From the IMG/VR virus record IMGVR_UViG_3300026290_000001: 64,000 bases of DNA, one strand, 5' to 3'. The DNA comes from a virus. This document shows positions 2,893 through 60,592 of the stretch, in pieces. How positions within the stretch are numbered: position 1 is the first letter of the stretch; every line of letters starts with the position of its first letter. The position numbers and the translations under genes are program-made. A model generated the notes under the pieces. It worked only from the letters and a program-made list of their open reading frames with translations, was not told where the DNA came from and made no database searches.

Positions 2893-3609
2893 CTACTTCT
2901 TCAATTCTTTAAGTAAATATTCAACGGCATTATCAATTAAAACAGCACATTCTATTCGTGTAATACTACTATTAGGATCTAAAATCCCATCGCCTTTACC
3001 AGAAAGTATTTTCTTCTCATATAATCTATCTGCACTTTTTGCTCCCCAATGATCTTTAGGCAAGTCTTTAAAATACTTTGACATTTCTTCAATCACCTTA
3101 CCTTTCAACAATTCCTTCTGAACTTCATTTTTAAATTTATCCCATGTCCAACCTAAATGACCTGCTCTTATTAAACGTGGACAATTTTTTCCATTCCAAT
3201 CCCAATGCTGTCTTAATGATTCTACATTTTTATTTTTAGATTTTAATAATTCTGCCACAAGTAAAACTGCATTTTCTAATGTTTTTTGGTAATTCCCACT
3301 TTCACATATTTCAATTCCTATACTACGTCTATTACCAGCACCACTTCCTCCATCTCCTGCGTGCCAAGCATTTTCAAATAAAGGAATACATTCAATTGCT
3401 TGTTTTTCATCAATGGCAATATGATAACCTGTAGAAGATGTATTTGAAGGATTGGTTAAATAATCTCTTTCATTTCTTGCAGTAGATTTTGAATTCCCTG
3501 TGTTGTGAATAGTAATATATTCCCAATCCATTTTATATTTTGGACGTTTATTAGAATTCATAGGAATGTGATCTATTACATAAGGAAAAGGTAAATTAAA
3601 TTTACTCAT
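2893..3609 (-). CDS. endolysin: N-acetylmuramoyl-L-alanine amidase (amidase_2/PGRP-like) with C-terminal SLH domain
   Basis: Catalytic region HNTGN..YHIAID..WHAGDGG..SIGIE typical of amidase_2; C-terminus FKDLPKDHWGAKSADRLYEKKILSGKGDGILDPNSSITRIECAVLI matches S-layer homology (SLH) motif. Confidence 0.75.
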   Translation of the reverse strand: MSKFNLPFPYVIDHIPMNSNKRPKYKMDWEYITIHNTGNSKSTARNERDYLTNPSNTSSTGYHIAIDEKQAIECIPLFENAWHAGDGGSGAGNRRSIGIEICESGNYQKTLENAVLLVAELLKSKNKNVESLRQHWDWNGKNCPRLIRAGHLGWTWDKFKNEVQKELLKGKVIEEMSKYFKDLPKDHWGAKSADRLYEKKILSGKGDGILDPNSSITRIECAVLIDNAVEYLLKELKK

Positions 3610-4203: not shown

Positions 4204-4428
4204 TCACAAACGTATTTGTTGATGACAACTTGGACAATGTTCAATAGGTGAAGCAGGATAAGTTATTATATAATAAATAACCCATAAAATTACTAATAAC
4301 CAAAACAATGGAGAACGAATAATAGTTGATAATATATTCCAAACTAAAAACAAGATACCTTGAATAAAAGATGTAGTTATATCTGTTATGTTATTAAAAA
4401 ATATATCTACTTTGTTTTTATATTTCAT
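4204..4428 (-). CDS. small membrane protein
   Basis: 74 aa, strongly hydrophobic core, C-terminal CPSC motif. Confidence 0.3.
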   Translation of the reverse strand: MKYKNKVDIFFNNITDITTSFIQGILFLVWNILSTIIRSPLFWLLVILWVIYYIITYPASPIEHCPSCHQQIRL

Positions 4429-4435
4429 AATCTAC

Positions 4436-5017
4436 CTACTTTAAAACCATACTTATCACTGCACCAAATCCCATAGACATTGCAATTATAAATAAATTCT
4501 TTAAAATATCTGATAATTTTATTTTATTATCACCACTTACTTCATCAATCTTCTTGCTTAATTTCTCCACACTAACTTCTGTACTGTTCATTCTATTGCT
4601 TAGTACGTCTAATGAATTACTGATCTTCGCTTGATTTTCACTAATTTCAGCAATCAATTTATCTCTTTTAATTCCGTCTTCTCTCTGTAATTTTGTGAGC
4701 AATTGGAGTTCGGACAAAACACTTGTAATATCATATATTTTGTTTGTTTGGCTTTCCAAATCATCTATACGGTGATTTGCCACCTTTATTTTTTCATCAA
4801 CATTCTTAAATACTTCGGCACAAATTTTTGGTTGTTCACATTCTTGATTTATGACCAATTCACAACACCATCCAATCTTTGTATTCATTCCTCCTTTGCG
4901 GTATAATGGGTACAAGGTAATTAATTTGACCGCAAAATTAATTACCATAACGAATAAGGCAGGATACCTATTTTTATCCTGCCTTATTTTTATTTTATTA
5001 AATTTAAAAAATCTCAA
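4436..5017 (-). CDS. XhlA-like coiled-coil membrane protein (lysis associated)
   Basis: 193 aa; central coiled-coil-like region and C-terminal TM helix (LFIIAMSMGFGAVISMVL) as in hemolysin XhlA-type phage lysis proteins. Confidence 0.4.
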   Translation of the reverse strand: MRFFKFNKIKIRQDKNRYPALFVMVINFAVKLITLYPLYRKGGMNTKIGWCCELVINQECEQPKICAEVFKNVDEKIKVANHRIDDLESQTNKIYDITSVLSELQLLTKLQREDGIKRDKLIAEISENQAKISNSLDVLSNRMNSTEVSVEKLSKKIDEVSGDNKIKLSDILKNLFIIAMSMGFGAVISMVLK

Positions 5018-5034
5018 AAAATCATTTTTAAGAA

Positions 5035-5049
5035 TCCCAATATATAGGG
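5035..5049. repeat. 15-bp motif ATCCCAATATATAGG, copy 2; forms hairpin ATCCC-AATATATA-GGGAT
   Basis: Exact match to 2447-2461; lies just downstream of the recombinase gene 5113-6117. Confidence 0.4.
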
Positions 5050-5112
5050 ATTTCTAAACCCGAAAATTTGAACCAAATTAAAGATTTGTTATGATACAAA
5101 ATAAAAACATAA

Positions 5113-6117
5113 TTATTGATAGAAATATTGAGTATAACTTTGTTGCTTGTGTTCAAACGTTTGTTTTGCGTAAATGCCCGTAGTTTGAATATCATCATGA
5201 CCTAAAAGTTCTTGTAATACCGACATTGGACAACCGTTATTTAGCATCAAGGTTGCGAAAGTATGTCTGAGCATATGGGGATGAGTTCTCTTGTCAAGCC
5301 CTGCACGTTTACCTATTGCTGCTATTTCTCGTTGAATACCTCGATTGCTTAATCTTCTATATTCCTGCCGTTCTGTTACAAATAATGCTTCACAGTCATC
5401 CTTACGACTTTCAAGATATTTTTTAAGGTAAATTGCAGCTCTAGCAGAATAGAATACAATTCGCTCTTTGTTTCCTTTGCCTAATACCTTAATCGTCCGA
5501 TTTGATTGTCCTATATCATCTTTATTTAGTGCCGATATTTCAGATAATCGACAACCTGTTGAATACATAATTTCAGTTAATGCTTTTTCTCGCAAAGTGA
5601 AACAACTTTCACGGAATAGTTCCAATTCTTCAATTGTTAATGCCTTTGCCATTGCTTTTCCCACTTTATAAGGTTTAATTCTAATCATCGGATTTTCTTC
5701 AATAATCTGTTCCTCACAAAGCCATTCAAAGAAACTGCGAAGTACTGAGCGAATTGTCTCAACAGTACTTTTAGCATTTACTGTTGGGTCGCTTTCCCGA
5801 TCATCCAGATAGTTAATTATGTCCTGCTTGGTTATTTCATTTACTGGTTTTTCTTCGGTTCTATCGGTAAATATTTTAAGATGAAGTCGATAATTATCAA
5901 TAGTTATTGGACTTAATCCTTGCCGTTTTTTATCCTTCAAAAACAGTTTTATGTTTTTCCGCAAATTATAATATTCTGGATCGCTGTTTTGTTTTATAAC
6001 TCTGTATTCATCAAGAATGGAGGCTAATTGATTTTTAGCCTCCATCTTATTCATGCCTTTTTCTATGATTCCATCTACAATTTTAGCATATAGCTCATAA
6101 TTGAGATTAGGGTGCAT
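5113..6117 (-). CDS. tyrosine recombinase (XerC/XerD-like integrase family)
   Basis: C-terminal catalytic motifs ...GCRLSEISAL..., HPHMLRHTFATLML, LGHDDIQTTGIYA; N-terminal SAM-like core-binding domain. Confidence 0.8.
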   Translation of the reverse strand: MHPNLNYELYAKIVDGIIEKGMNKMEAKNQLASILDEYRVIKQNSDPEYYNLRKNIKLFLKDKKRQGLSPITIDNYRLHLKIFTDRTEEKPVNEITKQDIINYLDDRESDPTVNAKSTVETIRSVLRSFFEWLCEEQIIEENPMIRIKPYKVGKAMAKALTIEELELFRESCFTLREKALTEIMYSTGCRLSEISALNKDDIGQSNRTIKVLGKGNKERIVFYSARAAIYLKKYLESRKDDCEALFVTERQEYRRLSNRGIQREIAAIGKRAGLDKRTHPHMLRHTFATLMLNNGCPMSVLQELLGHDDIQTTGIYAKQTFEHKQQSYTQYFYQ

Positions 6118-6385
6118 AGAATACCTCCTTTTATTTAGTTGTTACTGAAGGTTCATAGTCTACTGCGAAGTAACTTCTTAATACACATTTGCGAAGTCAG
6201 AAAACTTTTTAACCAATATCAAACAACCCCGACAATTTCTCTAACTTTTTCCCTATACATATTAGGCACAAAATCAATTATAATTCGCCCACTTTCTACT
6301 GCATATACCCACATTCCTAATATAGCTTCACTCATATCATTCATCTCCTTTTAGATTAAACAATTCGGTTCTTAACATATCGATT

Positions 6386-6616
6386 TCAGCCATCATCAAA
6401 GTGAGTAGAAGTGCTATTCCTTCTGCATCTTCGTTGAAAGCCAACTTCGATATAGTCATTCTTGTTGAACACTTGCTCATCATATTCCCAACCACTAAAC
6501 CCCTTCATGGCGTCAATATCTTCTTCCTCAATTCGCACTATATTCGTCCGAACATAGACTGTATCAGCATTCACTTCAATGGGCTTAACTGTTTCCTGTG
6601 TCCCTCTTATTCTCAC
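6386..6616 (-). CDS. hypothetical protein
   Basis: 76-aa ORF between fibre gene and recombinase in compositionally distinct (higher GC) block. Confidence 0.25.
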   Translation of the reverse strand: MRIRGTQETVKPIEVNADTVYVRTNIVRIEEEDIDAMKGFSGWEYDEQVFNKNDYIEVGFQRRCRRNSTSTHFDDG

Positions 6617-6691
6617 GCTTTATCACCTCTTTATAGTATTTTCCTTGATAGGCTTCTATTCGACCCATTCGACCAATTACCACTGTTATTA

Positions 6692-7843
6692 TTAAAAATA
6701 CACGAGGCGAGCGCCGATAACCGAATACTTTTCAGACTCCGAATAACCCACATGCAGCCGAAACGCCCCCGCCTTATCCGCAGCCGACCAATCACCACCG
6801 AAACGCGGCAAGCGCGAAACATTCAGAACCGCGGAATCGGGATAATGCGTGCTTTCGCTTCCGTTTGCTGTTTTGACGATAAAACCCGTTTCCGTACCAC
6901 CTTGTATGTCGTCTATGTAACCGACTATATTCGTTGTCGCACCCTGTCCGTAATTTGTATATCCAGAACCAATATCGTTAAAACTTTCATTGCCGATTAG
7001 GATGTTTCGGTCTGCATCACTAAATAATCCGTCAATCCAATAGTAAATATTACCCCAAAAATCTTCTATGCCACAAAATTTTAATTGTTGTTTTCCTGTA
7101 GTTTCACCATAGAACATACCTTTAGCATTTGTAGCACCCGTATTAACTTTGGCACTATTCCCATCGACATAACCTCTGCCTAAAGCAGTTTGCCAATCCC
7201 TACTCTTAAACATCACCGTACCTAAGACTTGCAACATTAAAAGTTGAAAATAAGCCATTTGGTCATAACCACTGCCATTCGCCTGTGCAATAGTTCTAAA
7301 TGCACCGATAGTTTCATAAGCGGTTGTTATTTTTCCGCTTAAACTTCTTAATTTAGAACCGTCAGAATATCCTAAATAAGCTGAAATGTAACACTTGGCT
7401 TTTTCGGTTGTACCCCTCATATGTGCTAAACATTTATACCCACTATCTACCTTTGCATTAGCATATCTTACATACAAGTCAGTCCCAATGGTTTCAAATT
7501 TCCACCAAATCTTAGGAAATTCAATCATTACGTCACCATCTGCACCACTTGTAATGTCTGCATTTGTCCCGTCAATTTTTTTAGTATAATCGTTTGGATT
7601 TAGATAGTATTGCACCACTCCATTTTTAAGTAAACATGGTTTAATCTGATTAAATGGAAACTTGTCTTGCCAACTACCATAAGAAAAATTGCCATTATTT
7701 CCTTGGGCTGGAGTAAAACCTATTGCATTATCTGTATAGGCTAAAGCAGTTTCGGGGTTGCTATTTGTAGTATCAATTTTGATGCCATATATTTTAGGTG
7801 GTGATTTTACTGGTTTTCTTTTCCTAATTAATGCCTCACCCAT
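6692..7843 (-). CDS. tail fibre protein, distal part; 3' third is GC-rich
   Basis: 383 aa, Gly/Asn/Thr-rich, contiguous with upstream fibre ORF; 3' segment about 6700-6960 has markedly higher GC than the genome. Confidence 0.5.
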   Translation of the reverse strand: MGEALIRKRKPVKSPPKIYGIKIDTTNSNPETALAYTDNAIGFTPAQGNNGNFSYGSWQDKFPFNQIKPCLLKNGVVQYYLNPNDYTKKIDGTNADITSGADGDVMIEFPKIWWKFETIGTDLYVRYANAKVDSGYKCLAHMRGTTEKAKCYISAYLGYSDGSKLRSLSGKITTAYETIGAFRTIAQANGSGYDQMAYFQLLMLQVLGTVMFKSRDWQTALGRGYVDGNSAKVNTGATNAKGMFYGETTGKQQLKFCGIEDFWGNIYYWIDGLFSDADRNILIGNESFNDIGSGYTNYGQGATTNIVGYIDDIQGGTETGFIVKTANGSESTHYPDSAVLNVSRLPRFGGDWSAADKAGAFRLHVGYSESEKYSVIGARLVYF

Positions 7844-8686
7844 TTACCTCACCACCTTTAGCTGAATTGGCAAACTAACTTCAGGTTTATCCATCGCATA
7901 TAATGTTATAGAATTATTAGCAGTTGTTACACGATAAATTTTACCCCACTCATTTACTCGTTCTTTATCTGTAGCAAATGTGCCACTCATTACTACGTCA
8001 ACTATAGGATTGTCATTTGACGATATTCCAGTTACCGTTTGCGTTTTCGTATATGGGGCTTCTGTACCTGTCCAAGTAGTATCAAGTGTTGTCGTAAGCG
8101 TAGCGTGATATACGTGTCCTAATTTACTTATTGTCGCACCATCTGCCAGATGGTTAGCAAACTTTTTCCCAACCCCACTAACCAAAGGTCTTTTATCGAC
8201 AATTATATTTACAGTTTTATCCGCATTTGTACTAATAGTACCAATTAATAGACTTCCATCTGTAATTGTTCCATCTATACTACTAGCAAAATTTCCATCA
8301 TTTTTAAGATATATAGTATAGGTTATACTGGCCGATACTGGATTAATAGTAAAAGTTGTATCAGATGTTTTAGTTATAGTATTTATTGTATTTCCACTAA
8401 ATGTTTCACCAGTACCACTAGCAATAACTATACTTAATGTATCTGTACCACTCGTATAAAATGCAGATTTTATTCTAAATGGACTATCCAATTCTAATGA
8501 ATTTAATAAAAATCTCGCATCTTTCCATGTTGCTCCTAAATCTCTAGGATCAGTACCACCTAAAGTAACATTTGCATCATCAGCAACATGGATAATATCT
8601 AAACCACTATATTTATTTCTAATTTCTGCTACTTGCTCATCTGTATGTATAGCAAATACTTTGCTATTTTTAATTACACAAATCAT
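7844..8686 (-). CDS. tail fibre protein (shares a module with 8706-10469)
   Basis: Segment TFTINPVSASITYTIYLKNDGNF...LLIGTISTNADKTVNIIVDKRPLVSGVG is paralogous to a region of the upstream gene. Confidence 0.5.
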   Translation of the reverse strand: MICVIKNSKVFAIHTDEQVAEIRNKYSGLDIIHVADDANVTLGGTDPRDLGATWKDARFLLNSLELDSPFRIKSAFYTSGTDTLSIVIASGTGETFSGNTINTITKTSDTTFTINPVSASITYTIYLKNDGNFASSIDGTITDGSLLIGTISTNADKTVNIIVDKRPLVSGVGKKFANHLADGATISKLGHVYHATLTTTLDTTWTGTEAPYTKTQTVTGISSNDNPIVDVVMSGTFATDKERVNEWGKIYRVTTANNSITLYAMDKPEVSLPIQLKVVR

Positions 8687-8705
8687 AAATTTATATCTCC
8701 CTCCT

Positions 8706-10469
8706 TTACACTATTATCCATGAACCTTTATTTCCCTCAGAATTAGGTTCAGGAGAGAAAATAGGACTGCCACTATAATTAGAACAACGTACATATCCAT
8801 TGTTATATGCAAATATATCAATTAAACCTGCATCACCAACATTAGAATTTGAAGCAAATAAAGAACCTTCTTCACAACAATCTATATTGTATTCCACATT
8901 GTTTTTTGCAATAATTCCCGAACTAAATCCTTTTCCACCATTATTAACTGTTAATCCTGATTTATTTCCACAAACACATATATTTTCTGCCATCATACCC
9001 CCACCAGTAGAATCATAAGCACCTTTTTCAGAATTACCATTTGCTATACAATTATTTATATAAATCCCTGCGAAATTGGAACATTCATAACCATTTTCAT
9101 TATTGGAAGATGCTGTATATGGTGCAGTAATACCTGCTCTGTTAGTTACAAAAAAACCAGATTTAAAACCAGATACTCCAACATTTGTACCACAAGTTAT
9201 GCTTGCGCCTGTTGTTGATAATATTCCATAATTAGTACTAGCATTAGAACCAATAATTGCAACATTATTTAATAATCCTAATTCAGAACGGTCAGCAACA
9301 ATACCATTACAATTTGTAAATTTTAACGTTGTAGTTAAAACAACAAAATCTCCACCCGTTAATGCAACAGCAGGGAATGGAGTACCTTGAAAAGTATTTT
9401 TAACCGTTACTACGTTTCCATTTATATTTATAATTTCATACATTCCACGTAAAACTTCATGATTACCTGTGCCTGTAGTATTTTTTATAATAGCATATTG
9501 TCCTACTTGCATACCTACTGCACTAGCAACTGTTATAGGTACAGACCAATTTCCAGCAGTATCAGAAACACTACCTACGTTTGAAACGGTTGTGGCAATA
9601 GGAGTAGCACCAATTATTCTTATATTAGAACCATTAACATGATTTATTTTAAGTTGAGAAGTATGTTCATACATTTCTGTTAATAAAGAAATAGTTACAG
9701 TAGTTGAACTAGTTATACTAGCAGTTTTTATACTATCTAAAGCATTTGGTATTGTAGTAAAATCACATCCAGTAGAGCCAACAGTTATAGTTTTATTGGC
9801 ATCTATAATAGTATCTGTTAAATGTTTAATAAATTCACTACCTACAGCACTAACTAAAGGTCTTTTATCAGTAATTGTATTTATAGATTTATCTGCATTG
9901 GTACTAATTGTTCCTATTAAAATACTTCCATTTGGAATACTACCATTTGTACTTTTATCAAAATTACCATCATTCTTTAAATAAATATTATAGGTCACGC
10001 TAGCACTTACTGGATTAATATTAAAAGTAGTATCAGATGTTTTTGTAATAGTGTTTAAAGTAGTACTATTAAAACTTTCACCTGAACCCGAAGTAATTAT
10101 TATTGATAAAGTATCTGTTACTGAATTATATTCAGCAGATTTTATCTGAAACGGATACCCATATACATCTTCTACATTACTTTTTAAACTATCATGATCA
10201 TATGCTGTAAATAATCTTCCTATTATCGTTCCATTACTCCATGTCTGTGCTGTCCCTTGAAATCCCCTAGTTACACCAACCAAACTACTACCACTTTTAT
10301 CTGTATATAAAATAGTTTCTGCATTATTACCAGTTCCTATAGTAGCAAGATTAGGTGCATTGGGAAAAACTGAAATATCAGTTACGGGGATGGTAGTTGC
10401 AATACTATTTATATCAGAAGAAAGTGTTGTAAGAGGGGAGTTAATTTTAGCATTATACATTGTTTCCAT
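8706..10469 (-). CDS. tailspike/tail fibre with parallel beta-helix-like C-terminal domain
   Basis: 587 aa; repetitive G/N/S/T-rich segments with spaced Cys/Asn/Gly typical of right-handed beta-helix depolymerases; shared N-terminal module with 7844-8686. Confidence 0.5.
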   Translation of the reverse strand: METMYNAKINSPLTTLSSDINSIATTIPVTDISVFPNAPNLATIGTGNNAETILYTDKSGSSLVGVTRGFQGTAQTWSNGTIIGRLFTAYDHDSLKSNVEDVYGYPFQIKSAEYNSVTDTLSIIITSGSGESFNSTTLNTITKTSDTTFNINPVSASVTYNIYLKNDGNFDKSTNGSIPNGSILIGTISTNADKSINTITDKRPLVSAVGSEFIKHLTDTIIDANKTITVGSTGCDFTTIPNALDSIKTASITSSTTVTISLLTEMYEHTSQLKINHVNGSNIRIIGATPIATTVSNVGSVSDTAGNWSVPITVASAVGMQVGQYAIIKNTTGTGNHEVLRGMYEIININGNVVTVKNTFQGTPFPAVALTGGDFVVLTTTLKFTNCNGIVADRSELGLLNNVAIIGSNASTNYGILSTTGASITCGTNVGVSGFKSGFFVTNRAGITAPYTASSNNENGYECSNFAGIYINNCIANGNSEKGAYDSTGGGMMAENICVCGNKSGLTVNNGGKGFSSGIIAKNNVEYNIDCCEEGSLFASNSNVGDAGLIDIFAYNNGYVRCSNYSGSPIFSPEPNSEGNKGSWIIV

Positions 10470-11687
10470 TTACTCTATCACCCCTTCATAATTAACCTTC
10501 CAAACATCATTAACTTTGCCATAGATGCCAATGATAGGTTTCCATTTTCCATTAATTTTTACATAAACATTATTAATATTTTTCCAATTACCATTTACTT
10601 TATAAATCAGCGCAGTATTGTAAACTGAAATATCATTAATATTTAATAATAAATTATCATTAGCATTGGTTTCTACAAATACATTTGTAGTTTCATGTAT
10701 ATTTATATTTAAACTATCATTAGAATTAATATCAACATTTTTGTGAATATAACTTTCATTAATAGACAATCTAATTGAATCAGTTATATTATTAGATGCA
10801 GTTAAATTATTTACATTATCCGTTGAAGAAATATTTAATGTATCACTAACATTTGGCAAGGCAGTAACATTTGCATTGTCAGCACAATAAATATTAATAG
10901 CATCATTTTTATTAAACTCATTAATAGTTAAATCTATGCCATTAATATCTAAATTTTCAGATGTGCTAATATCTACCAATATATTTTTGGTTTCATTTAC
11001 ACCTATATTTAAATTATCACCAGTATTTATATTAGTAATTAATTGACTTTCTTCGGTAATATCTAAATATAAATTGTTTTCAATATCCTTGGATAATACT
11101 AATAAAGAATCTTCTTGTAGATTGATATCTAAAGAATCTTCTAGGTTTAAAGAAATATATGATGATTCATCTATTGTTAAATTAATATCATCTTCTACTT
11201 CAATGTTTTTATCTAAATTATTAGTTTCACTTAATGATAAATCAAGATCGTCATAAGTTTTTATATTGTAAGCATCAGGAGAATCCCATATAGATAATTC
11301 TTGTATATTTATAGACAAAGAATCATTAACATTTATATTTACATTTAATGATTGCGAATCACTTACAGTTAAGTTAAGTGCATCTTGAAGTGTATTAGTT
11401 ACTTCTAAATCCGAAACATCATTTAGTGTAATTATAGGCGGGTCAGTACCTGAAGCATTTACAAGCCTTTCACTTTCCTCTACAGATGTAATAATTAAAT
11501 TGTCAGAAACACTAAAAGTCCAAATTTTATTACTTTCTTCAGTTATAGTTATTGTTAATTCATCATGTACATTTATTTCTATAACTGCTGATTCTGTAAT
11601 ATTTAGTGTTAATTCATCCGAAGAGGAAGATGATATATCGTTTAATGTGTTGAAAGATGTTTGGTTAAAACGTCCTTGATTAAACAA
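10470..11687 (-). CDS. tail fibre-like repetitive protein
   Basis: 405 aa, low-complexity Asn/Ile/Ser-rich repeats, C-terminal YKVNGNWK / INGKWK / VNDVWK repeats. Confidence 0.4.
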   Translation of the reverse strand: MFNQGRFNQTSFNTLNDISSSSSDELTLNITESAVIEINVHDELTITITEESNKIWTFSVSDNLIITSVEESERLVNASGTDPPIITLNDVSDLEVTNTLQDALNLTVSDSQSLNVNINVNDSLSINIQELSIWDSPDAYNIKTYDDLDLSLSETNNLDKNIEVEDDINLTIDESSYISLNLEDSLDINLQEDSLLVLSKDIENNLYLDITEESQLITNINTGDNLNIGVNETKNILVDISTSENLDINGIDLTINEFNKNDAINIYCADNANVTALPNVSDTLNISSTDNVNNLTASNNITDSIRLSINESYIHKNVDINSNDSLNINIHETTNVFVETNANDNLLLNINDISVYNTALIYKVNGNWKNINNVYVKINGKWKPIIGIYGKVNDVWKVNYEGVIE

Positions 11688-11747
11688 TAAATATCACCTC
11701 CTCATTAATTAAAAATAGGACTATATATAATTTTTATATTAATAATA

Positions 11748-12128
11748 TTAACTAATATTAATTGTAAGTGTTACGGTAAGAAGCCAGTTTCCACCGGATT
11801 TTGTGCCTAAATTTTCCACCTTCCTATTCAACATAACTCCTCCACTAGAAGCATTAAAAACTCCCCATTCCTGCCATGCAAAATTAGCATCAGTAGTTCC
11901 AAAACTAGATTTAAATACTAACTGATTATTAGTTCTTGTAGGGAAAGTGGCTTCCATGCCCTTTCTTACTTTGTTAGAACTTGCTTGTAAATCAATCTGT
12001 GAAGCTGCAAAAGCAGTAGTAGAATCACCGACTCCGATATGCGAATTTGTCGAATTAAAGAATACGGGTGAATCATCATTAATTATACAAGCTGCTATAA
12101 AATCTCTACCACTATTTGTTAATGCCAT
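11748..12128 (-). CDS. hypothetical structural protein
   Basis: 126-aa ORF in tail fibre region. Confidence 0.3.
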   Translation of the reverse strand: MALTNSGRDFIAACIINDDSPVFFNSTNSHIGVGDSTTAFAASQIDLQASSNKVRKGMEATFPTRTNNQLVFKSSFGTTDANFAWQEWGVFNASSGGVMLNRKVENLGTKSGGNWLLTVTLTINIS

Positions 12129-13104: not shown

Positions 13105-14397
13105 TCAGTCATGAGATGAATTGGCTCTGTTCTGTTCATATATAATCCATGATTTTCTTGCATTAATTCTTTGCATGTTAGATATTTTCGGTGTCTTCAT
13201 ACCTCTGGGTGCATTACTAAAATCTATTTTTTCACCATCTATACCCATAAGAATGGCATAACCCGTAGACATTCTACCTTTAATAAAATATTCATTACCT
13301 ATATACCTTACTTTATCAAACTTCCTAAATCCTTCTATTTTACCTGTAGGTATCTTCTGATGACTTCTTACTCCTTTTGCCTGTTGGTAATCGCCTTTAG
13401 GGATACACTTTTTTAATACAGCTTTTTCAGTTTTAAAGCTTACATCAATTAACCCTATATCTTCAATATTATTTAAACAGGCAATAGCTACAGCATCGTA
13501 GTAATGCTCTTTTGGTAATCCCATTAGCTGTCTATGTTCTTTGGTAATAAATCCAAAGGTTTCTTTTGCATTTGGTAGCTGTCTTAATAATTGTTGTCTT
13601 ATACTATTCATCTGTGTTGTGTGTTTTAATTGTCCTTTAATTTTACCATTCTTCTTTAATTTAATTCCTCCTTTGTGCAAACTATTATGACAAGTTTTAC
13701 AAAGTGTAATTAAATTTTCTGCATCATCTGAGCCACCATTTTTTCTAAAAACTATATGATGTACCTCTAATCTGCTGTCTTTACTTTTTCCTTTGCAATA
13801 CTGGCAAATATATTTATCTCTACTTAATACATAAGCTTTAGTATTAGCAAATCCATAATTAGTTCCTTTTTGATAAAGCCATTTATTACTTAATACTGCT
13901 GGATTTTTTAAAGCATGTGGGTCAAATGTTGCTGTTTCTATTATTATATTTGTAATGGGCATTATTGATTTTGCAAAATCAATTTCTTTTAAGTGTGAAT
14001 TAATTTTACTTGTCATTGTAGGAGAAAATCTATCTTTTTTAATGCTGTTTTTCCTATTATTAAATCTAGGTTCCCTATATCTAGTTTTCCTATTCCTTCT
14101 AGTTCTCCTATATTTAGCTCTTTTGTCCATTTTGTCAGATATATCATTTCTAATTTCTACTTCTGATATATAATACACTTCATTTTCGTCATTTGCTACT
14201 GCACTTCCTATTTTACTACTACCAGTATCAATTCCTAAAGTTAAATCTTGTGTATAGTCTGTAGCATGATATAGTAATTTAATTGTAAATGGAGTTCTTC
14301 TTATGCATTTTGCTTTACCATCTTTTAACAATAATCTTGCTATTGCTGGTTTACAAGGCATTAAAGGACTCCCATCTTCATTAATTACATAAACCAT
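13105..14397 (-). CDS. iscB: IscB, OMEGA-family RNA-guided nuclease (PLMP domain, split RuvC, HNH)
   Basis: N-terminus VYVINEDGSPLMPCKPAIARLLLKDGKAKCIRRTPFTIKL (PLMP domain); RuvC-I LGIDTGSSKIGSAV; Arg-rich bridge helix RRTRRNRKTRYREPRFNNRK; RuvC-II ETATFD; HNH CQYCKGKS...LEVHHIVFRKNGGSDDAENLITLCKTCHNSLH; RuvC-III HYYDAVAIA; domain order exactly as in described IscB proteins. Confidence 0.85.
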   Translation of the reverse strand: MVYVINEDGSPLMPCKPAIARLLLKDGKAKCIRRTPFTIKLLYHATDYTQDLTLGIDTGSSKIGSAVANDENEVYYISEVEIRNDISDKMDKRAKYRRTRRNRKTRYREPRFNNRKNSIKKDRFSPTMTSKINSHLKEIDFAKSIMPITNIIIETATFDPHALKNPAVLSNKWLYQKGTNYGFANTKAYVLSRDKYICQYCKGKSKDSRLEVHHIVFRKNGGSDDAENLITLCKTCHNSLHKGGIKLKKNGKIKGQLKHTTQMNSIRQQLLRQLPNAKETFGFITKEHRQLMGLPKEHYYDAVAIACLNNIEDIGLIDVSFKTEKAVLKKCIPKGDYQQAKGVRSHQKIPTGKIEGFRKFDKVRYIGNEYFIKGRMSTGYAILMGIDGEKIDFSNAPRGMKTPKISNMQRINARKSWIIYEQNRANSSHD

Positions 14398-36802: not shown

Positions 36803-37801
36803 TTAGTCAGATATTTGATATCTGCCATAAAGGTCAGTAATTACAATACCAGTACCGTACCGAGTAGCTGCAAAGTAATCTTGGGTCAAATCTTGGTTGG
36901 CAAGTGCATCACCACTGATAATTCTCATTTCACCTTCGGTTACAAATTTTACAGGTTTTGCATCAACGGATACTATATAAAGATCACTTTCAGAAAGTTT
37001 GAAATTATATGTACCAACGGTGTGAACCTGTTTGATTCTCATCATAGGAGTACCATTAAAGTTACCATAATAACCCATTTTGTACATATCATCTTTTGCA
37101 GCATCAGCTATAATAGCAGTAGTTACTTTCCGTAGTGCTTTTCTAGTTCCTGCAATCATGGCAGATTTGCCAGTGGCGGCTTCAACGTGTTCAATTACAT
37201 CAAGTAAATCTTCTTCATCAAAAGAACCATTGTCGGTGAATCCAGCAGGTAAACCAGAGAAAGCACCAGTGAAAGCGGTGTAAATATCATCGTTAATTTT
37301 CAGTTTGAAAGCCTTATCTAATGCTTCAAGCATTTCGTTAAAGTCTACACGTCCGGCGAGTAAACGAGAAAGATGTTCGTATATTTTGATGCCTTTCCAA
37401 GAGGTGGTGATAGAAACATTAGTTCCAACATCTAAACGCTGTCTACGTAGAGATTGAGTTCCATCGGCAATTTCTGAAATTACCAACATGGTGCGGTCTG
37501 GCGCATAGAAACTATTCTGATCACCAAGGGCAAGGTTCTTATATTCCACAAAATTTTCAAAGAAATTATCATCAGGAAGTCCTTCAAGGACAGTGTTTTG
37601 AAGAATCTCTTCTAATATTTCAAACATTGCTACGCCATTTCTACGGAATGATTTATAATCCAATTTGGTAGAACCACCATTGAGTTCTATAAAATGTTGG
37701 CGCAATGCCTCTGTTGCATCGGATTTACTAAATTTATCATGTGAAAATTTATTTTTATAAATATCTTTCGCTAATTTTACCAAAGTTTTATTATCTTCCA
37801 T
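36803..37801 (-). CDS. putative major capsid protein
   Basis: 332 aa, position downstream of portal/protease block, strong RBS, followed by strong terminator. Confidence 0.45.
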   Translation of the reverse strand: MEDNKTLVKLAKDIYKNKFSHDKFSKSDATEALRQHFIELNGGSTKLDYKSFRRNGVAMFEILEEILQNTVLEGLPDDNFFENFVEYKNLALGDQNSFYAPDRTMLVISEIADGTQSLRRQRLDVGTNVSITTSWKGIKIYEHLSRLLAGRVDFNEMLEALDKAFKLKINDDIYTAFTGAFSGLPAGFTDNGSFDEEDLLDVIEHVEAATGKSAMIAGTRKALRKVTTAIIADAAKDDMYKMGYYGNFNGTPMMRIKQVHTVGTYNFKLSESDLYIVSVDAKPVKFVTEGEMRIISGDALANQDLTQDYFAATRYGTGIVITDLYGRYQISD

Positions 37802-37838
37802 TTAATTTATTCCTCCTTTATTTATATTAATAGATTAA

Positions 37839-38369
37839 TTATCTAACACTAATCATCTCTACCACATTAAGATACTTCGAACCATTGTAGATTTCTCTTG
37901 CAATGATTTTTCCATAGAAAACTTCACTCTTAGCAATGTTGGCTACTTCTGCCCACTTAACACCTGTGGCGTCAGGAGCAACATAGGAATTAACTGCGGG
38001 GATGCCACTACCACTGCTAATCGGAGTAATGCAATCATCGCTGATACTAAAAGTGTCACCAACTTCAAGAGGTATTAGAGTAATATTCGCACCTGCGGCA
38101 TTTTGAAACTTGTCTAATGCCTGACCAGATTTCGTTGATTCATCATAGATGATTTCTGGACTGGCTACAAGGTAACAATTAGGAGTAGTTTCACCCCCAG
38201 GTGCCACACACTTCCAGAGTTCTCTTTCTCCCGTAATTAGGGAATGCAATTTTACGATACATCCATTGTCAATAGCAGTAGGATCAGCACCTACATAGTA
38301 CCGTCCACTCTTGATATTACCTGCTTTAGTAGCCTTGATTGCGTCTGTTCTTACGATTCCGTATGCCAT
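37839..38369 (-). CDS. hypothetical head protein (scaffold/decoration candidate)
   Basis: 176-aa ORF immediately upstream of capsid gene. Confidence 0.3.
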   Translation of the reverse strand: MAYGIVRTDAIKATKAGNIKSGRYYVGADPTAIDNGCIVKLHSLITGERELWKCVAPGGETTPNCYLVASPEIIYDESTKSGQALDKFQNAAGANITLIPLEVGDTFSISDDCITPISSGSGIPAVNSYVAPDATGVKWAEVANIAKSEVFYGKIIAREIYNGSKYLNVVEMISVR

Positions 38370-55089: not shown

Positions 55090-55413
55090 TTAATCTTTTT
55101 TCTCTTTCTTTTCCTTAGATTTTTTTGCCTTTTGTAATCTTTCTCCCATTTCTTTCTTTTGAGCCTCAGTTAACTTTTTCTTTTTGGTTGGTGCTCTAAA
55201 TGAAATCAACTTCTTATCACAAACAAATTCTTTTCCCACTAATTCATTATCTTCATCAAATTGATCACTAACATGCTGATATGATTCAGGATACTGTTTA
55301 CAAAGTTTATCCAGTTTGTTTAAATCTGCACGAATAAAAGTTATTATTTGTGCTTTTTTAGAATCTTCATCAATCCCTACGCAAGTATAACGCTCCATTT
55401 TTTCTAATGCCAT
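55090..55413 (-). CDS. hypothetical protein with Lys-rich C-terminal tail
   Basis: 107 aa, C-terminus KKKKLTEAQKKEMGERLQKAKKSKEKKEKKD. Confidence 0.3.
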   Translation of the reverse strand: MALEKMERYTCVGIDEDSKKAQIITFIRADLNKLDKLCKQYPESYQHVSDQFDEDNELVGKEFVCDKKLISFRAPTKKKKLTEAQKKEMGERLQKAKKSKEKKEKKD

Positions 55414-55454
55414 ATGTATAAATTCCTTCTTTCATTTTTATATTAATAAAATAA

Positions 55455-56204
55455 TTAAAATTCCACTAATCTATTTTTCGCTATTTCACAATATTTTTCT
55501 TCTAATTCAATTCCAATACATTTACGTTTAAGATTTCGTGCCGCCAATAAAGTTGTTCCTGAACCACAGGTAAAATCTAAAATAAGATCGTTTTCATTTG
55601 TGTATGTATTAATTAAATATTCCATTAATTCTAATGGTTTTTGTGTAGGATGAAATAAATTATTATTTGGATTTGCAAAATTTAATATATTTTTAGGATA
55701 ACCTTTAGCATTACTATTTCCAAAATGCTTTTCTTTCCCAAAAGTATATTCTCCATCCACTTTATTTTCTCTACTTGGTCTATTATTATTAAATTCTCCA
55801 TAAATTAACCCTTGCGGATTATAAATGCATTGATTTTTATAAAAAACTAAAACATCTTCTATTGCTCTCATTGGTTGTTTTTTAGCATTTAAATGACCAC
55901 TTGGTTTAGTTTTTATCCATTTCCAATCATATTTATATTCTTTAATATTACTAATTCTTAAAAAACTACTAAAAGGTTCTCCTCCAAACAATAATGTAGG
56001 TGTTGTATTTTTTGTTAATTTATGTAATCTATCCCACATGTCATTAAATTTGATAATTTCATCCCATTTACATTTAGTAGTACCGTATGGTGGGTCAGTA
56101 ATTATTGCATCAAATTTAATACCTTTCTCAATAATCTTATCCATTACCTCTAAACAATCACCTTGAAATAATCTTATGTATTCGTCTTTATAGTATAATT
56201 TCAA
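55455..56204 (-). CDS. DNA methyltransferase (amino-MTase), paralog of 56249-57034
   Basis: IITDPPYGTT motif and LDFTCGSGTTLLAA SAM-binding motif; N- and C-termini near-identical to neighbour, central region differs. Confidence 0.8.
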   Translation of the reverse strand: MKLYYKDEYIRLFQGDCLEVMDKIIEKGIKFDAIITDPPYGTTKCKWDEIIKFNDMWDRLHKLTKNTTPTLLFGGEPFSSFLRISNIKEYKYDWKWIKTKPSGHLNAKKQPMRAIEDVLVFYKNQCIYNPQGLIYGEFNNNRPSRENKVDGEYTFGKEKHFGNSNAKGYPKNILNFANPNNNLFHPTQKPLELMEYLINTYTNENDLILDFTCGSGTTLLAARNLKRKCIGIELEEKYCEIAKNRLVEF

Positions 56205-56248
56205 TTTATGTAAATATATCTCCTTTCATTTTTATATTAATAAAATAA

Positions 56249-57034
56249 TTAAAATTCCACTAATCTATTTTTCGCTATTTCACAATATTTTTCTTCTAAT
56301 TCAATTCCAATACATTTACGTTTAAGATTTCTTGCCGCTAACAATGTTGTCCCTGAACCACAGGTAAAATCTAAAATAAGTTCGTTTTCTTTTGTGTATG
56401 TATTAATAAGGTATTCTAATAGTTCAATTGGTTTTTGAGTCGGATGTAATTTTTTCCCTGACATACTAGCGTTGCTTAAAGTATAAATACTTGTTGGATG
56501 TCTATCTTTATATTCTTTATGCCCCAAGTCTTTTATGGTATGTCCTTCTCTTAATGTGCTATTTCTTGAACCATAAAATGTTTTATTAACTTTTTTTATA
56601 TCATCTCGTTTTGTTTTTTGAGGATAATAATTCATTTCATTACCTTTTGAGAAAACTGCTTTTGCTTTACTAAAAATTAAAATATTTTCATGTACTCTAC
56701 CTACTTGAAAATTCATCATTTGAAAATTAGATGGTTTTACTTTATCCCAAATAATTTCATATCTAAATAGTTGAGGATTACTCATAATTAAAGCACTCGT
56801 AAAAGGTTGAGAACCATTCAATACTATTGCACCTTTATCTTTGATTAATTGAGTAATTTTATCCCACATCTTATCAAAAGGAATTATCGTGTCCCATTTA
56901 CATGCTGTAGTACCATAAGGTGGATCAGTTATTATCGCATCAAATTCAATACCTTTCTCAATCAATTTATCCATCACTTCTAAACAGTCACCTTGAAACA
57001 ATCTTATGTATTCATCTTTATAGTATAATTTCAT
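56249..57034 (-). CDS. DNA methyltransferase (amino-MTase), paralog of 55455-56204
   Basis: IITDPPYGTT and LDFTCGSGTTLLAA motifs; upstream/downstream non-coding sequence also duplicated. Confidence 0.8.
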   Translation of the reverse strand: MKLYYKDEYIRLFQGDCLEVMDKLIEKGIEFDAIITDPPYGTTACKWDTIIPFDKMWDKITQLIKDKGAIVLNGSQPFTSALIMSNPQLFRYEIIWDKVKPSNFQMMNFQVGRVHENILIFSKAKAVFSKGNEMNYYPQKTKRDDIKKVNKTFYGSRNSTLREGHTIKDLGHKEYKDRHPTSIYTLSNASMSGKKLHPTQKPIELLEYLINTYTKENELILDFTCGSGTTLLAARNLKRKCIGIELEEKYCEIAKNRLVEF

Positions 57035-59713: not shown

Positions 59714-60592
59714 TTAAATAGCACAATTATTCATACTTTTTCTTATATCATCTTGTGAAGGATGTAAATATATTTGAGTAGTAGAAAGCGAACCATGACC
59801 AAGTATCTGCTGAAGAGCCTTGAGATTCCCACCATTTTCTAAAAAATTAGTAGCAAATACATGTCTTAATGAATGACAAGTTATTACATTACTATGTTTG
59901 TTAAATATTCTTTCAACACTACTACTTTCTAATTTTTCACTTTTGTTGCTTAAAAATAAATATTTACTTCCTAATACATTATAAGCATACTTATAATTCT
60001 TTCTATCATCAATCGCTTTTTTAATAATCTCAATAGCAGTTTCATTCAATGGTATTATTCTTTGCTTACTTCCCTTACCAATAACTTTAAGATTCTTTCT
60101 TTTAAAATTAATATCATCCAACTCAATATTTAATGCTTCAGATATTCTTAAGCCAGTATTCAGAAGTAAAGCAACTATATAATAATTCCTATCACATTCA
60201 TTCTTCCTTATTCTTTCCATAAATTTTATTGCTTCAGATTTAGTAATACTAGTTGGAGATGTTAATTGTTTTTGTATGCGTATATAATCCTGTCCCAATA
60301 TCACCAAACTATCCTGATACCCCATCTTAACCAAAAATTCATTATAACTTTTCAAAGCACTTAACCTTCTATTTATTGTCTTAGCATCAACATTTCTTTC
60401 TTTAAGTAAATATTCCTTATACTCCGCAATCTGATCTCTACTAATAATCTGGGGTTCAATTCCAAAATACTCAAAAAACAAACCAATATCATGAGAATAA
60501 GATTTTATTGTATTGATAGATTTACCTTGTTCTACTAGGTGGTTGATGTATTCGGTTAAATAATTTTCATTTGCAACGAGATTCATATTCAT
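59714..60592 (-). CDS. tyrosine recombinase (XerD-like)
   Basis: Motifs NTGLRISEALNI, HSLRHVFATNFLENGG, LGHGSLSTTQIYLH. Confidence 0.8.
   Translation of the reverse strand: MNMNLVANENYLTEYINHLVEQGKSINTIKSYSHDIGLFFEYFGIEPQIISRDQIAEYKEYLLKERNVDAKTINRRLSALKSYNEFLVKMGYQDSLVILGQDYIRIQKQLTSPTSITKSEAIKFMERIRKNECDRNYYIVALLLNTGLRISEALNIELDDINFKRKNLKVIGKGSKQRIIPLNETAIEIIKKAIDDRKNYKYAYNVLGSKYLFLSNKSEKLESSSVERIFNKHSNVITCHSLRHVFATNFLENGGNLKALQQILGHGSLSTTQIYLHPSQDDIRKSMNNCAI

What the first reader, a model, noticed from the sequence alone, without database searches (positions are those of the whole stretch)
5113..7000. Higher-GC block comprising a tail-fibre 3' end, a small ORF and a tyrosine recombinase: possible recombinase-linked receptor-binding cassette
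The 3' third of fibre gene 6692-7843 (about 6700-6960) is far more GC-rich than the rest of the AT-rich genome, and the adjacent small ORF and recombinase gene are also elevated. This suggests the fibre tip and recombinase were acquired together from a higher-GC source. The layout (variable C-terminal fibre segment followed immediately by a tyrosine recombinase) resembles Rci-type shufflons that switch adhesin C-termini, so host-range switching or modular tip exchange is plausible. The long antisense ORF 6401-7000 is most likely a GC artefact but could hide an alternative inverted tip.
Basis: partly seen in the sequence, partly recalled or inferred. Interest (0 to 1): 0.55.

Follow-up and report, generated by a model that had tools for sequence, protein, structure and literature searches.

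The report
Fossil hypermutation cassette in phage tail tip
The GC-rich spike is the adenine-poor "variable region" of a phage tail protein that reverse-transcriptase cassettes (DGRs) hypermutate in related phages. In this phage the cassette has been deleted down to small stubs, and the neighbouring recombinase is an unrelated passenger, not a tip-switching enzyme.

Summary
The highest GC in the 64-kb window (0.57 against a mean of 0.29) lies at 6701-6850, the last ~50 codons of the 383-aa tail protein gene (6692-7843, minus strand). A tyrosine recombinase gene lies at 5113-6117.

The shufflon interpretation is not supported. The protein is a C-type-lectin-fold DGR variable protein: the best PDB fold matches are TaqVP and Bordetella phage Mtd.
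- Of 95 non-redundant related loci, 49 carry a template repeat (TR) plus a DGR-type reverse transcriptase (RT) directly downstream.
- Across the 56 best TR/VR pairs, 96% of mismatches sit at TR adenines.

The spike is the variable region (VR). Scaffold codons avoid adenine (coding-strand A 13% against 35% elsewhere), and former AAY codons are randomised. Relatives show the same spike whatever their genome GC.

This phage has no TR or RT. What remains is a 33-nt TR stub (6657-6689) and an RT C-terminal remnant (6588-6659). The VR is identical in every public copy. It is a decayed DGR.

The recombinase is Xer-like. Close homologues sit in late modules of unrelated Firmicutes phages, and none of the 133 target-family loci from other phages has one beside the target gene. 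No crossover repeats or alternative tips exist. Raised GC3 across 4436-7843 does hint at separate horizontal acquisition of that block.

The parts
6692..7843 (-). Gene for a 383-aa distal tail protein; a DGR-type variable protein with a C-type lectin fold
   Evidence: PHROG 5302 'tail protein' 1e-74. More than 1,600 homologues. AlphaFold2 model pLDDT 91, pTM 0.92. Best PDB fold matches are TaqVP 5VF4 (E 1e-10) and Mtd 1YU0-1YU4 (E about 4e-4).
6693..6838 (-). Former variable region (VR); this is the GC spike. Adenine-free scaffold codons are interspersed with randomised ex-AAY codons.
   Evidence: A TR profile built from 56 relatives matches window 6702-6827, E 7.7e-07. Coding-strand A is 0.13-0.15 against 0.35 in the rest of the gene. 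The alignment shows a conserved G/W/A/F/L/S/I/R scaffold with hypervariable positions between. The window's GC maximum and A minimum both fall here.
6657..6689 (-). 33-nt stub of the template repeat (TR profile positions 35-67), starting a few bases after the stop codon
   Evidence: Second-best hit of the TR profile in the whole window, E 0.006; E 0.0006 among orphan loci. Over the first 19 nt, all 4 differences from the VR are adenines in the stub (read directly from the sequence).
6588..6659 (-). Remnant of the last ~20 codons of the DGR reverse transcriptase (..KYYKEVIK..), overlapping the start of the small gene
   Evidence: This is the best tblastn hit of relatives' RTs anywhere in the window, and it matches their extreme C-termini. 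Alignment with L017, L018, L097 and L014.
6337..6616 (-). Small conserved gene (PHROG 18126) that follows the target, or the RT when present, throughout the family. Here it is split by a frameshift into 6386-6616 (76 aa) and 6337-6495 (52 aa).
   Evidence: PHROG 18126 hit. Homologues in 35 loci, always after the RT or after the target. L014 has one intact 87-aa ORF covering both window frames. The frameshift is present in all contigs of this phage.
6219..6344 (-). 41-aa ORF that looks XkdX-like (last small gene of the fibre module)
   Evidence: Called in public contigs; translation. Relatives have a Pfam XkdX ORF at the same position. The window's own ORF has no significant Pfam hit, so this is an inference.
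5113..6168 (-). Xer-like tyrosine recombinase gene (334 aa, 5113-6117) plus a 51-nt leader; a discrete unit shared with unrelated phages
   Evidence: Pfam Phage_integrase and SAM-like domains. NCBIfam NF040815 scores 229.7 bits against a cut-off of 220. 86% nucleotide identity to L232-L235 over exactly 6168-5113 and nowhere else. A Logan contig of this phage ends at 6161.
4953..4988 (.). Perfect 14-bp inverted repeat with an 8-nt spacer, 125 nt downstream of the recombinase gene. It is either a terminator-like hairpin (its T-run is on the + strand) or a candidate recombinase site; undecided.
   Evidence: There is no second copy in the window.
6401..7000 (+). 199-aa antisense ORF; a composition artefact
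   Evidence: No PHROG match. It lies opposite the A-poor VR, where the + strand T content is 0.07-0.25, so T-initiated stop codons are rare.

Best explanation
The 383-aa tail protein is a receptor-binding 'variable protein' of the kind diversified by diversity-generating retroelements (DGRs).

How it works in intact relatives. A ~140-nt template repeat (TR) lies 30-100 nt after the gene, followed by a DGR reverse transcriptase (RT). TR RNA is copied with errors only at adenines, and the cDNA replaces the last ~50 codons of the gene (the VR).

Why this makes a GC spike. The system works only if invariant scaffold residues use codons without adenine and variable residues are AAY in the TR. Every VR of the family is therefore adenine-poor, and in an AT-rich genome it stands out as GC-rich.

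What happened in this phage. The cassette has been destroyed in place. Deletions removed most of the TR and nearly all of the RT, leaving a 33-nt TR stub and the last ~20 RT codons fused in front of the next gene. The VR is now a frozen receptor-binding tip.

The recombinase. The downstream Xer-like tyrosine recombinase is a separately acquired gene. Its homologues recur in late (tail or tail-lysis) modules of Firmicutes phages. Its role is unknown, and it does not act on the fibre tip.

Shown: family membership, fold, VR composition, TR/RT in relatives, absence of TR/RT in the window, the stubs, VR invariance.
Inferred: that loss happened by deletion in this lineage, and that no DGR elsewhere in the genome serves this VR.
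For: Fold
- AlphaFold2 model pLDDT 91.
- Best PDB matches are the DGR variable proteins TaqVP (E 1e-10) and Mtd (E about 4e-4).
- A sequence profile weakly aligns the VR to the TaqVP VR.

Family
- 58 of 146 fetched loci have an IGxxxSQ...YxDD RT ORF directly downstream. Two of these were confirmed as Pfam RVT_1.
- 56 TR/VR pairs show 1437 of 1491 mismatches at TR adenines.
- Census of 95 non-redundant loci: 49 TR+RT, 6 TR only, 2 RT only, 13 with neither but a still A-poor VR (including the window), 25 with neither and normal A.
- The cultured Psychrobacillus phage Perkons has the homologue followed by an annotated RT. Its TR shows 32 of 32 mismatches at adenines, and its VR GC is 0.53 in a locus of GC 0.32.

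Composition
- A-free codons at conserved positions and NNY-type codons at variable ones, in the window and in relatives.
- The window's GC maximum and coding-strand A minimum coincide with the VR.

Loss
- No TR in the window.
- No RT in the window.
- The 99.5-kb and 64.9-kb IMG/VR contigs of this phage each match a pattern allowing 'VR base or A' once only, at the VR. Neither contig is among the 80 best RT loci.
- TR stub and RT C-terminal remnant.
- L097 is an intermediate: it keeps the whole TR, has lost the RT, and retains the same RT tail.

Frozen VR
- 12 contigs from several samples differ from the window by 1-4 SNPs, none in the VR.
- The 90% identity cluster holds only variants at residues 177 and 195.
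Against: - About 28 kb of the ~135-kb genome was not seen, in the window or in the IMG/VR contig, so a remote TR/RT cannot be formally excluded.
- The contigs may come from related samples of one study, so VR invariance is weaker evidence than the contig count suggests.
- The 3' half of the stub (GGGTCGAATA) does not match the present VR at non-adenine positions. The stub has therefore drifted or been rearranged, or it derives from a slightly different TR.
- The RT-tail sequence also contains the ribosome-binding site of the next gene, which would by itself favour its retention.
- The window VR departs from family-wide fixed non-A TR positions at 6 of 33 sites, against a mean of 6.6% in active VRs. 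This fits post-loss drift but lies within the range of active VRs (maximum 30%).
Confidence: 0.85

Rival explanations
1. The DGR is still active. A TR and RT elsewhere in the unsampled part of the genome, or in a co-resident element, diversify this VR in trans.
For: DGRs with remote targets are known (general knowledge of the family). About 28 kb of the genome was not examined. The VR is still strongly adenine-depleted, so the loss, if real, is recent.
Against: - TR and RT remnants sit at the canonical position, showing that the cognate cassette was there and was deleted.
- No second match to the 'VR base or A' pattern in the 99.5-kb contig.
- No RT from this phage's contigs among the 80 best IMG/VR RT loci.
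- The VR is identical in all public copies.
Confidence: 0.05
2. One reading: the recombinase and fibre tip form a shufflon-like or cassette-exchange system that switches receptor-binding tips by site-specific recombination.
For: - A tyrosine recombinase lies 575 nt downstream of the fibre gene on the same strand.
- A perfect 14-bp palindrome with an 8-nt spacer lies near it.
- Several assemblies give the block 8216-4476 as a separate contig, and one contig ends at 6161, at the recombinase unit border.
Against: - No inverted or direct repeats of credible length or identity flank or lie inside the fibre 3' end.
- No alternative tip copy on either strand.
- The antisense ORF has no homologues.
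- No inversion or deletion isoform among 12 contigs.
- The recombinase is Xer-like; the invertase models score far below their cut-offs.
- None of the 133 target-family loci from other phages has this recombinase next to the target gene.
- The recombinase's close relatives sit beside unrelated genes: TMP/Dit, holins, amidase.
Confidence: 0.02
3. The composition reflects horizontal transfer from a higher-GC donor. This rivals the main explanation only for the sharp spike; for the broader block it is compatible with it.
For: - GC3 is 0.25-0.39 for p170, the recombinase, the small ORF and the non-VR part of the target, against 0.10-0.19 for flanking genes.
- The closest recombinase copies are in phage contigs of 0.43-0.47 GC. 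The closest target relatives come from loci of 0.34-0.37 GC, including a Metabacillus prophage and metagenome contigs.
- The short contigs coincide with the block.
- The left border of the recombinase unit carries the last codons of a donor-type small gene.
Against: - The spike (0.55-0.65 GC) is far above any plausible donor. It is confined to the VR, is strand-asymmetric (loss of A, not of T), and recurs in relatives with genome GC from 0.26 to 0.5.
- Conserved genes elsewhere in the window, such as 36803-38369, also have raised GC3.
- Target and recombinase have different nearest relatives and contexts, so joint acquisition is not shown.
Confidence: 0.4

Closest known systems
Bordetella phage BPP-1 DGR (Mtd / TR / Brt)
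   Same: A distal tail receptor-binding protein with a C-terminal C-type-lectin-fold VR. Mtd is among the top fold matches. In relatives of the window gene the order is VR, TR, RT, with adenine-specific mismatches.
   Different: The window has no TR or RT, only stubs. In this family the TR follows the target directly and no avd-like gene lies between target and RT (gene maps). Sequence identity to Mtd is about 11%.
Thermus aquaticus DGR variable protein TaqVP (PDB 5VF4)
   Same: Best structural match over the whole 383 aa (Foldseek E 1e-10, probability 1.0). The VR segments align by sequence profile.
   Different: 14-16% identity. TaqVP is a cellular protein, not a phage tail protein.
Psychrobacillus phage Perkons ORF176 / ORF175 (cultured, 136.8 kb)
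   Same: Closest isolated-phage homologue (44% identity), with a similar genome size. ORF176 is followed by a TR (32 of 32 mismatches at A) and an annotated reverse transcriptase, and shows the same local GC spike. Perkons is also reported to carry a tyrosine recombinase in its structural module (PMC9703825).
   Different: The Perkons DGR is intact. No recombinase lies next to ORF176 in the 19 kb shown.
R64 shufflon with Rci, and the Gin/Cin/Min tail-fibre invertases
   Same: Only the superficial layout: an adhesin or fibre 3' end near a site-specific recombinase gene.
   Different: No sfx-like repeats, no multiple invertible segments and no alternative C-termini. The recombinase is Xer-like, not Rci-type; Gin and Cin are serine recombinases (and general knowledge).
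Xer-like tyrosine recombinases embedded in structural or late modules of Firmicutes phages (Tyrovirus gp50, Perkons, Lactococcus 949 group; C. perfringens phiCp-D)
   Same: A Xer-type recombinase co-oriented with tail and lysis genes. Homologues at 54-93% identity sit at TMP/Dit or fibre/lysis junctions, and a more distant one (37%) sits between tail and lysis genes in phiCp-D. The literature notes this placement as curious and unexplained (PMC9703825).
   Different: No conserved att-like site was found next to the gene across these loci. Function is untested.

Membership tests
Diversity-generating retroelement (complete, functional cassette) | DGR-clade reverse transcriptase gene (IGxxxSQ and YxDD motifs) near the target | tested here: not met
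   No RT ORF in the window by motif or by tblastn with 7 family RTs. Only a ~20-codon C-terminal remnant remains at 6588-6659. It is present in 58 related loci.
Diversity-generating retroelement (complete, functional cassette) | TR/VR pair differing almost only at TR adenines | tested here: not met
   No TR in the window or in the 99.5-kb contig of the same phage. Only a 33-nt stub remains. Met in 56 relatives, with 96% of mismatches at A.
DGR variable (target) protein family | C-terminal C-type lectin fold carrying the VR | tested here: met
   AlphaFold2 model pLDDT 91. Top PDB matches are TaqVP and Mtd, followed by FGE/EgtB-type folds.
DGR variable (target) protein family | VR with adenine-free scaffold codons and hypervariable positions at ex-AAY codons | tested here: met
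   Codon listing; A 0.13 in the VR against 0.35 elsewhere; conservation pattern; the TR profile matches the VR at E 7.7e-07.
DGR variable (target) protein family | Orthologues demonstrably targeted by DGRs | tested here: met
   49 of 95 non-redundant loci have TR+RT. These include relatives at 67-70% identity (L017-L019) and phage Perkons.
DGR: ongoing diversification | Population-level variation concentrated in the VR | tested here: not met
   No VR difference among 12 contigs or among the 3 cluster members. Read-level data were not available.
Shufflon (Rci type) | Several DNA segments bounded by short inverted crossover repeats at the 3' end of the adhesin gene | tested here: not met
   Only chance-level AT-rich repeats of 28 nt or less at 70-80% identity in 4400-8800.
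Shufflon (Rci type) | Alternative C-terminal coding segments in either orientation | tested here: not met
   No second copy of the tip. The antisense ORF has no homologues.
Shufflon (Rci type) | Rci-type or invertase-type recombinase | tested here: not met
   The best model is the Xer-type NF040815, above its cut-off. Tyrosine invertase models score 40-48 bits against cut-offs of about 221. No Rci-specific model was available.
Xer-like tyrosine recombinase | Phage_integrase catalytic domain plus N-terminal SAM-like domain; score above a curated Xer-type model | tested here: met
   Pfam PF00589 3e-41, PF13495 and PF02899. NF040815 scores 229.7 against 220. The XerC and XerD equivalog cut-offs are not reached, so it is Xer-like rather than XerC or XerD.
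Phage integrase with adjacent attP | Identifiable attP beside the gene and an attB in a host | not testable with these tools
   The only candidate is the 14+8+14 palindrome at 4953-4988. No prophage junction was available.

The most novel reading that the evidence does not exclude
The ~3.7-kb block (about 4476-8216: fibre-gene 3' flank, frozen variable protein, small genes, Xer-like recombinase, p170) may be a recombinase-borne host-range cassette that moves between co-circulating phages. The late-expressed recombinase would act on a lox-like site such as the 14+8+14 palindrome at 4953-4988.

This would explain three things: the block's foreign GC3, its assembly as a separate contig in four samples, and the recurrent placement of this recombinase clade at tail/lysis junctions.

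The evidence does not exclude this. It does not support it beyond those coincidences.
Probability: 0.07. Interest if true: 0.6.

Novelty: new member of a known kind. Interest (0 to 1): 0.3.

Why it matters
The finding shows that a sharp, strand-asymmetric GC spike (loss of A on the coding strand) at the 3' end of a tail gene in an AT-rich phage is a sequence-only signature of a DGR variable region. That signature persists after the retroelement is gone.

The family provides a graded decay series:
- intact cassette (L017);
- RT deleted (L097);
- TR reduced to a stub (this window);
- TR gone and only the RT tail left (L014);
- nothing left, with adenine content recovering in the most decayed loci.

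This series could be used to date DGR loss and to find 'orphan' variable proteins that RT-centred DGR searches miss.

It also guards against misreading such spikes as horizontal transfer or as recombinase cassettes.

The Xer-like recombinase adds one more case to a recurring, still unexplained placement of tyrosine recombinases inside late operons of Firmicutes phages.

Tried and rejected
- Pfam and NCBIfam give nothing for the tail protein. Sequence search of the PDB with the single protein gives nothing, and with a profile only a weak TaqVP hit.
- DNA similarity of 5000-12000 to known phages is essentially nil.
- The first automated TR search returned no hits because of an invalid BLAST scoring combination. 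It was rerun correctly.
- Collection scans with a degenerate 'VR base or A' pattern:
  - The accepted scan matched many poly-A or N stretches, but only one site in each contig of this phage.
  - The metagenome scan with T/G/C anchors found nothing, not even the VR, so this phage is not in that collection and the scan is uninformative.
- I looked for the recombinase next to the target in 146 loci and found it only in copies of this phage.
- I looked for a shared palindromic or att-like site next to recombinase homologues and found none conserved.
- The promoter and terminator scan of 4300-7000 is at chance level, apart from the palindrome.
- The excess of non-A departures in the window VR, tested as evidence of drift, is suggestive only.
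- I considered that the small gene after the target might be an Avd-like DGR accessory. I rejected this because it also occurs in loci without any DGR trace and always lies after the RT, not between target and TR.
Full report
**1. The observation**

The window is AT-rich (28.7% GC). Around the finding all genes lie on the minus strand, in this order:
- tail-fibre-like genes at 10470-11687, 8706-10469 and 7844-8686;
- a 383-aa tail protein gene at 6692-7843;
- small ORFs;
- a tyrosine recombinase gene at 5113-6117;
- a 170-aa ORF, holins and an SLH-domain amidase at 2893-3609.

Identical contigs of about 135 kb exist in several metagenomes. YomF/YomG-type tail proteins indicate a large SPbeta-like phage of a Firmicute.

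The GC spike is the strongest in the window. It reaches 0.573 in 6701-6850 (mean 0.287, sd 0.055) and 0.60-0.65 in 60-nt windows at 6750-6839. It is also strand-asymmetric: the coding strand loses adenine (0.127, the minimum for the window), not thymine. The recombinase call is correct.

**2. What the tail protein is**

The protein has more than 1,600 homologues, many at 55-75% identity. They include prophage proteins of Metabacillus, Heyndrickxia, Salinibacillus and Sporosarcina.

In alignments the first ~330 residues are strongly conserved. The last ~50 show a fixed scaffold (G, W, A, F, L, S, I, R) with hypervariable positions between.

At the codon level, conserved residues use adenine-free codons. 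This holds in the window and in relatives from different genomes (for example TCG CGC TTG CCG. TTC GGT GGT. TGG). Variable residues are mostly NNT codons.

An AlphaFold2 model is confident (pLDDT 91, pTM 0.92). Its best PDB matches are the two classic DGR variable proteins: TaqVP (5VF4, E 1e-10) and Bordetella phage Mtd (1YU0-1YU4, E about 4e-4).

**3. The family is a DGR target family**

I fetched 132 related loci.
- 58 of the 146 loci held at that point encode an ORF with the DGR RT motifs IGxxxSQ...YxDD, 200-500 nt downstream on the same strand. Two were confirmed as Pfam RVT_1.
- A 120-155-nt repeat of the gene's 3' end lies 30-100 nt after the stop codon in 56 loci. Of 1,491 mismatches, 1,437 (96%) are adenines in the downstream copy. 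This is the defining DGR signature.
- A census of 95 non-redundant loci with enough downstream sequence gives:
  - 49 with TR and RT;
  - 6 with TR only;
  - 2 with RT only;
  - 13 with neither but a still adenine-poor VR (the window is one);
  - 25 with neither and normal adenine content.
- The cultured Psychrobacillus phage Perkons (136.8 kb) has the homologue followed by an annotated reverse transcriptase. Its TR shows 32 of 32 mismatches at adenines, and its VR GC is 0.53 in a locus of GC 0.32.

The VR is GC-rich and A-poor in all these loci, whatever the locus GC (0.26 to 0.5). The spike is therefore a mechanistic by-product of DGR design, not a mark of a higher-GC donor.

**4. The state of the cassette in this phage**

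The window contains no second copy of the VR. Repeat finder, permissive blastn and patterns allowing 'VR base or A' with up to 3 mismatches all find only the VR. It contains no RT.

In IMG/VR, the 99.5-kb and 64.9-kb contigs of the same phage match the 'VR base or A' pattern once each, at the VR. Neither contig appears among the 80 best RT loci.

A profile built from the 56 TRs finds two things in the window:
- the VR (E 7.7e-07);
- as second-best hit, a 33-nt stretch a few bases after the stop codon (6657-6689, E 0.006), matching internal TR positions 35-67.

Over the first 19 nt of that stretch, all four differences from the VR are adenines in the stub.

Immediately next to it, the best tblastn match of relatives' RTs anywhere in the window corresponds to their last ~20 residues (KYYKEVIK...; 6588-6659). 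It overlaps the start of the next gene exactly as the RT 3' end does in intact loci.

Salinibacillus locus L097 is an intermediate. It keeps the whole TR (16 of 16 mismatches at A), has lost the RT, and retains the same RT tail. L014 keeps only the RT tail. L095 and L012 keep nothing.

The conserved gene order is target, then optionally TR and RT, then a small PHROG-18126 gene. The window fits this order with the TR-RT segment deleted.

The VR is identical in 12 contigs from several samples; the only differences are 1-4 SNPs elsewhere. It is also identical in all three members of the 90% identity cluster, which vary only at residues 177 and 195.

I conclude that the DGR was lost by deletion and the tip is frozen.

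Caveats:
- About 28 kb of the genome was not seen.
- The samples may be related.
- The 3' half of the stub does not fit the present VR at non-A positions.

**5. The recombinase**

It is Xer-like: NCBIfam NF040815 scores 229.7 bits against a cut-off of 220, while invertase models score far below theirs.

Among the 146 loci held at that point, it lies next to the target only in the window and the 12 copies of this phage.

Homologues lie co-oriented inside late modules of other Firmicutes phages:
- L232-L235 (93% aa): between tape-measure/small genes and Dit.
- L239 (64%): between fibre/small genes and holin-amidase.
- L240 (54%): an SPbeta-like phage that also has a serine integrase.
- L241 (67%): another phage-like contig, between small ORFs and two large ORFs without Pfam hits.
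- C. perfringens phage phiCp-D (37%): tail, integrase, holin, endolysin.

Nucleotide homology between the window and L232-L235 (86%) spans exactly 6168-5113, that is a 51-nt leader plus the ORF, and stops at the stop codon. A Logan contig of this phage ends at 6161.

The literature already notes tyrosine recombinases inside structural modules (Tyrovirus gp50, Perkons, the Lactococcus 949 group) as curious and of unknown role (PMC9703825).

The region 4400-8800 has no credible inverted or direct crossover repeats. The single strong palindrome (4953-4988: 14-bp arms, 8-nt spacer) has no second copy in the window. It looks like a plus-strand terminator, and its role is open.

The shufflon reading is therefore not supported.

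**6. The broader block**

GC3 is 0.25-0.39 for p170, the recombinase, the small ORF and the non-VR part of the target. Flanking tail and lysis genes have 0.10-0.19, although conserved head-region genes elsewhere in the window are also raised.

Four assemblies yield just the block from 8201-8216 down to 4476-4850 as a separate contig.

This fits relatively recent horizontal acquisition, or sharing of the block among co-existing strains. Target and recombinase have different nearest relatives, so joint acquisition is not shown.

**7. The antisense ORF**

The ORF at 6401-7000 has no homologues. It is explained by the scarcity of T on the plus strand opposite the A-poor VR.

**8. Verdict**

This is an ordinary but instructive case: a DGR-type variable tail protein whose retroelement has decayed to stubs, next to an unrelated late-module Xer-like recombinase. 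It is a new member of a known kind. Interest is modest (0.3).

Noticed in passing
window 6337-6616 (-): The small PHROG-18126 gene after the target is split by a +1-type frameshift near 6440-6450 (..NKNDYIE / KLAFNEDAEG..). Relatives such as L014 have one 87-aa ORF. The frameshift is present in all public contigs of this phage, so it is not an assembly error.
   Followed up: partly
window 59714-60592 (-): A second Xer-like tyrosine recombinase (292 aa, 30% identical to the first) with resident-type GC3 (0.19). The phage therefore carries at least two, as reported for Tyroviruses and Perkons.
   Followed up: partly
window 4953-4988: A perfect 14-bp inverted repeat with an 8-nt asymmetric spacer (lox/FRT-like geometry), 125 nt downstream of the recombinase gene. 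Its T-run is on the plus strand, opposite to the local genes. It is either a terminator against antisense transcription or a recombinase site.
   Followed up: partly
window about 8201-8216, 6161 and 4476-4850 (contig ends of L005, L008-L011): Independent assemblies break at the edges of the compositionally odd block and at the left border of the recombinase unit. This suggests strain-level mosaicism, or extra copies of these segments, in the communities sampled.
   Followed up: partly
window 13105-14397 (-): A free-standing 430-aa HNH endonuclease (RRXRR/HNH domains) sits inside the tail module. It is probably a homing-type selfish gene.
   Followed up: no
window 8141-8440 and 9813-10112; 10470-11687: The 280-aa and 587-aa fibre-like proteins share a 300-nt segment at 75% identity (a duplicated domain). 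The 405-aa protein is built of degenerate internal repeats.
   Followed up: no
window 55413-57034 (-): Two adjacent paralogous genes (249 and 261 aa), with upstream regions 91% identical over 244 nt and coding parts about 74% identical.
   Followed up: no
L097 11158-11400 (Salinibacillus aidingensis); L048 1033-1200: Other decay intermediates of the same DGR family. L097 keeps an intact TR but has the RT deleted to a short in-frame stub. In L048 RT coding sequence (..IGSYLSQY..) starts about 100 nt after the target stop codon, with no TR.
   Followed up: partly
window 6169-6186 (-): Just upstream of the recombinase unit lies an orphan '..EVTSQ*' coding fragment. It matches the C-terminal codons of the small gene that precedes the recombinase in L232, L233 and L239, and looks like a scar of the recombination that brought the recombinase in.
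   Followed up: partly
window 2893-3609 (-): The endolysin combines an Amidase_2 domain with an SLH domain, which implies a host with an S-layer-bearing wall.
   Followed up: no
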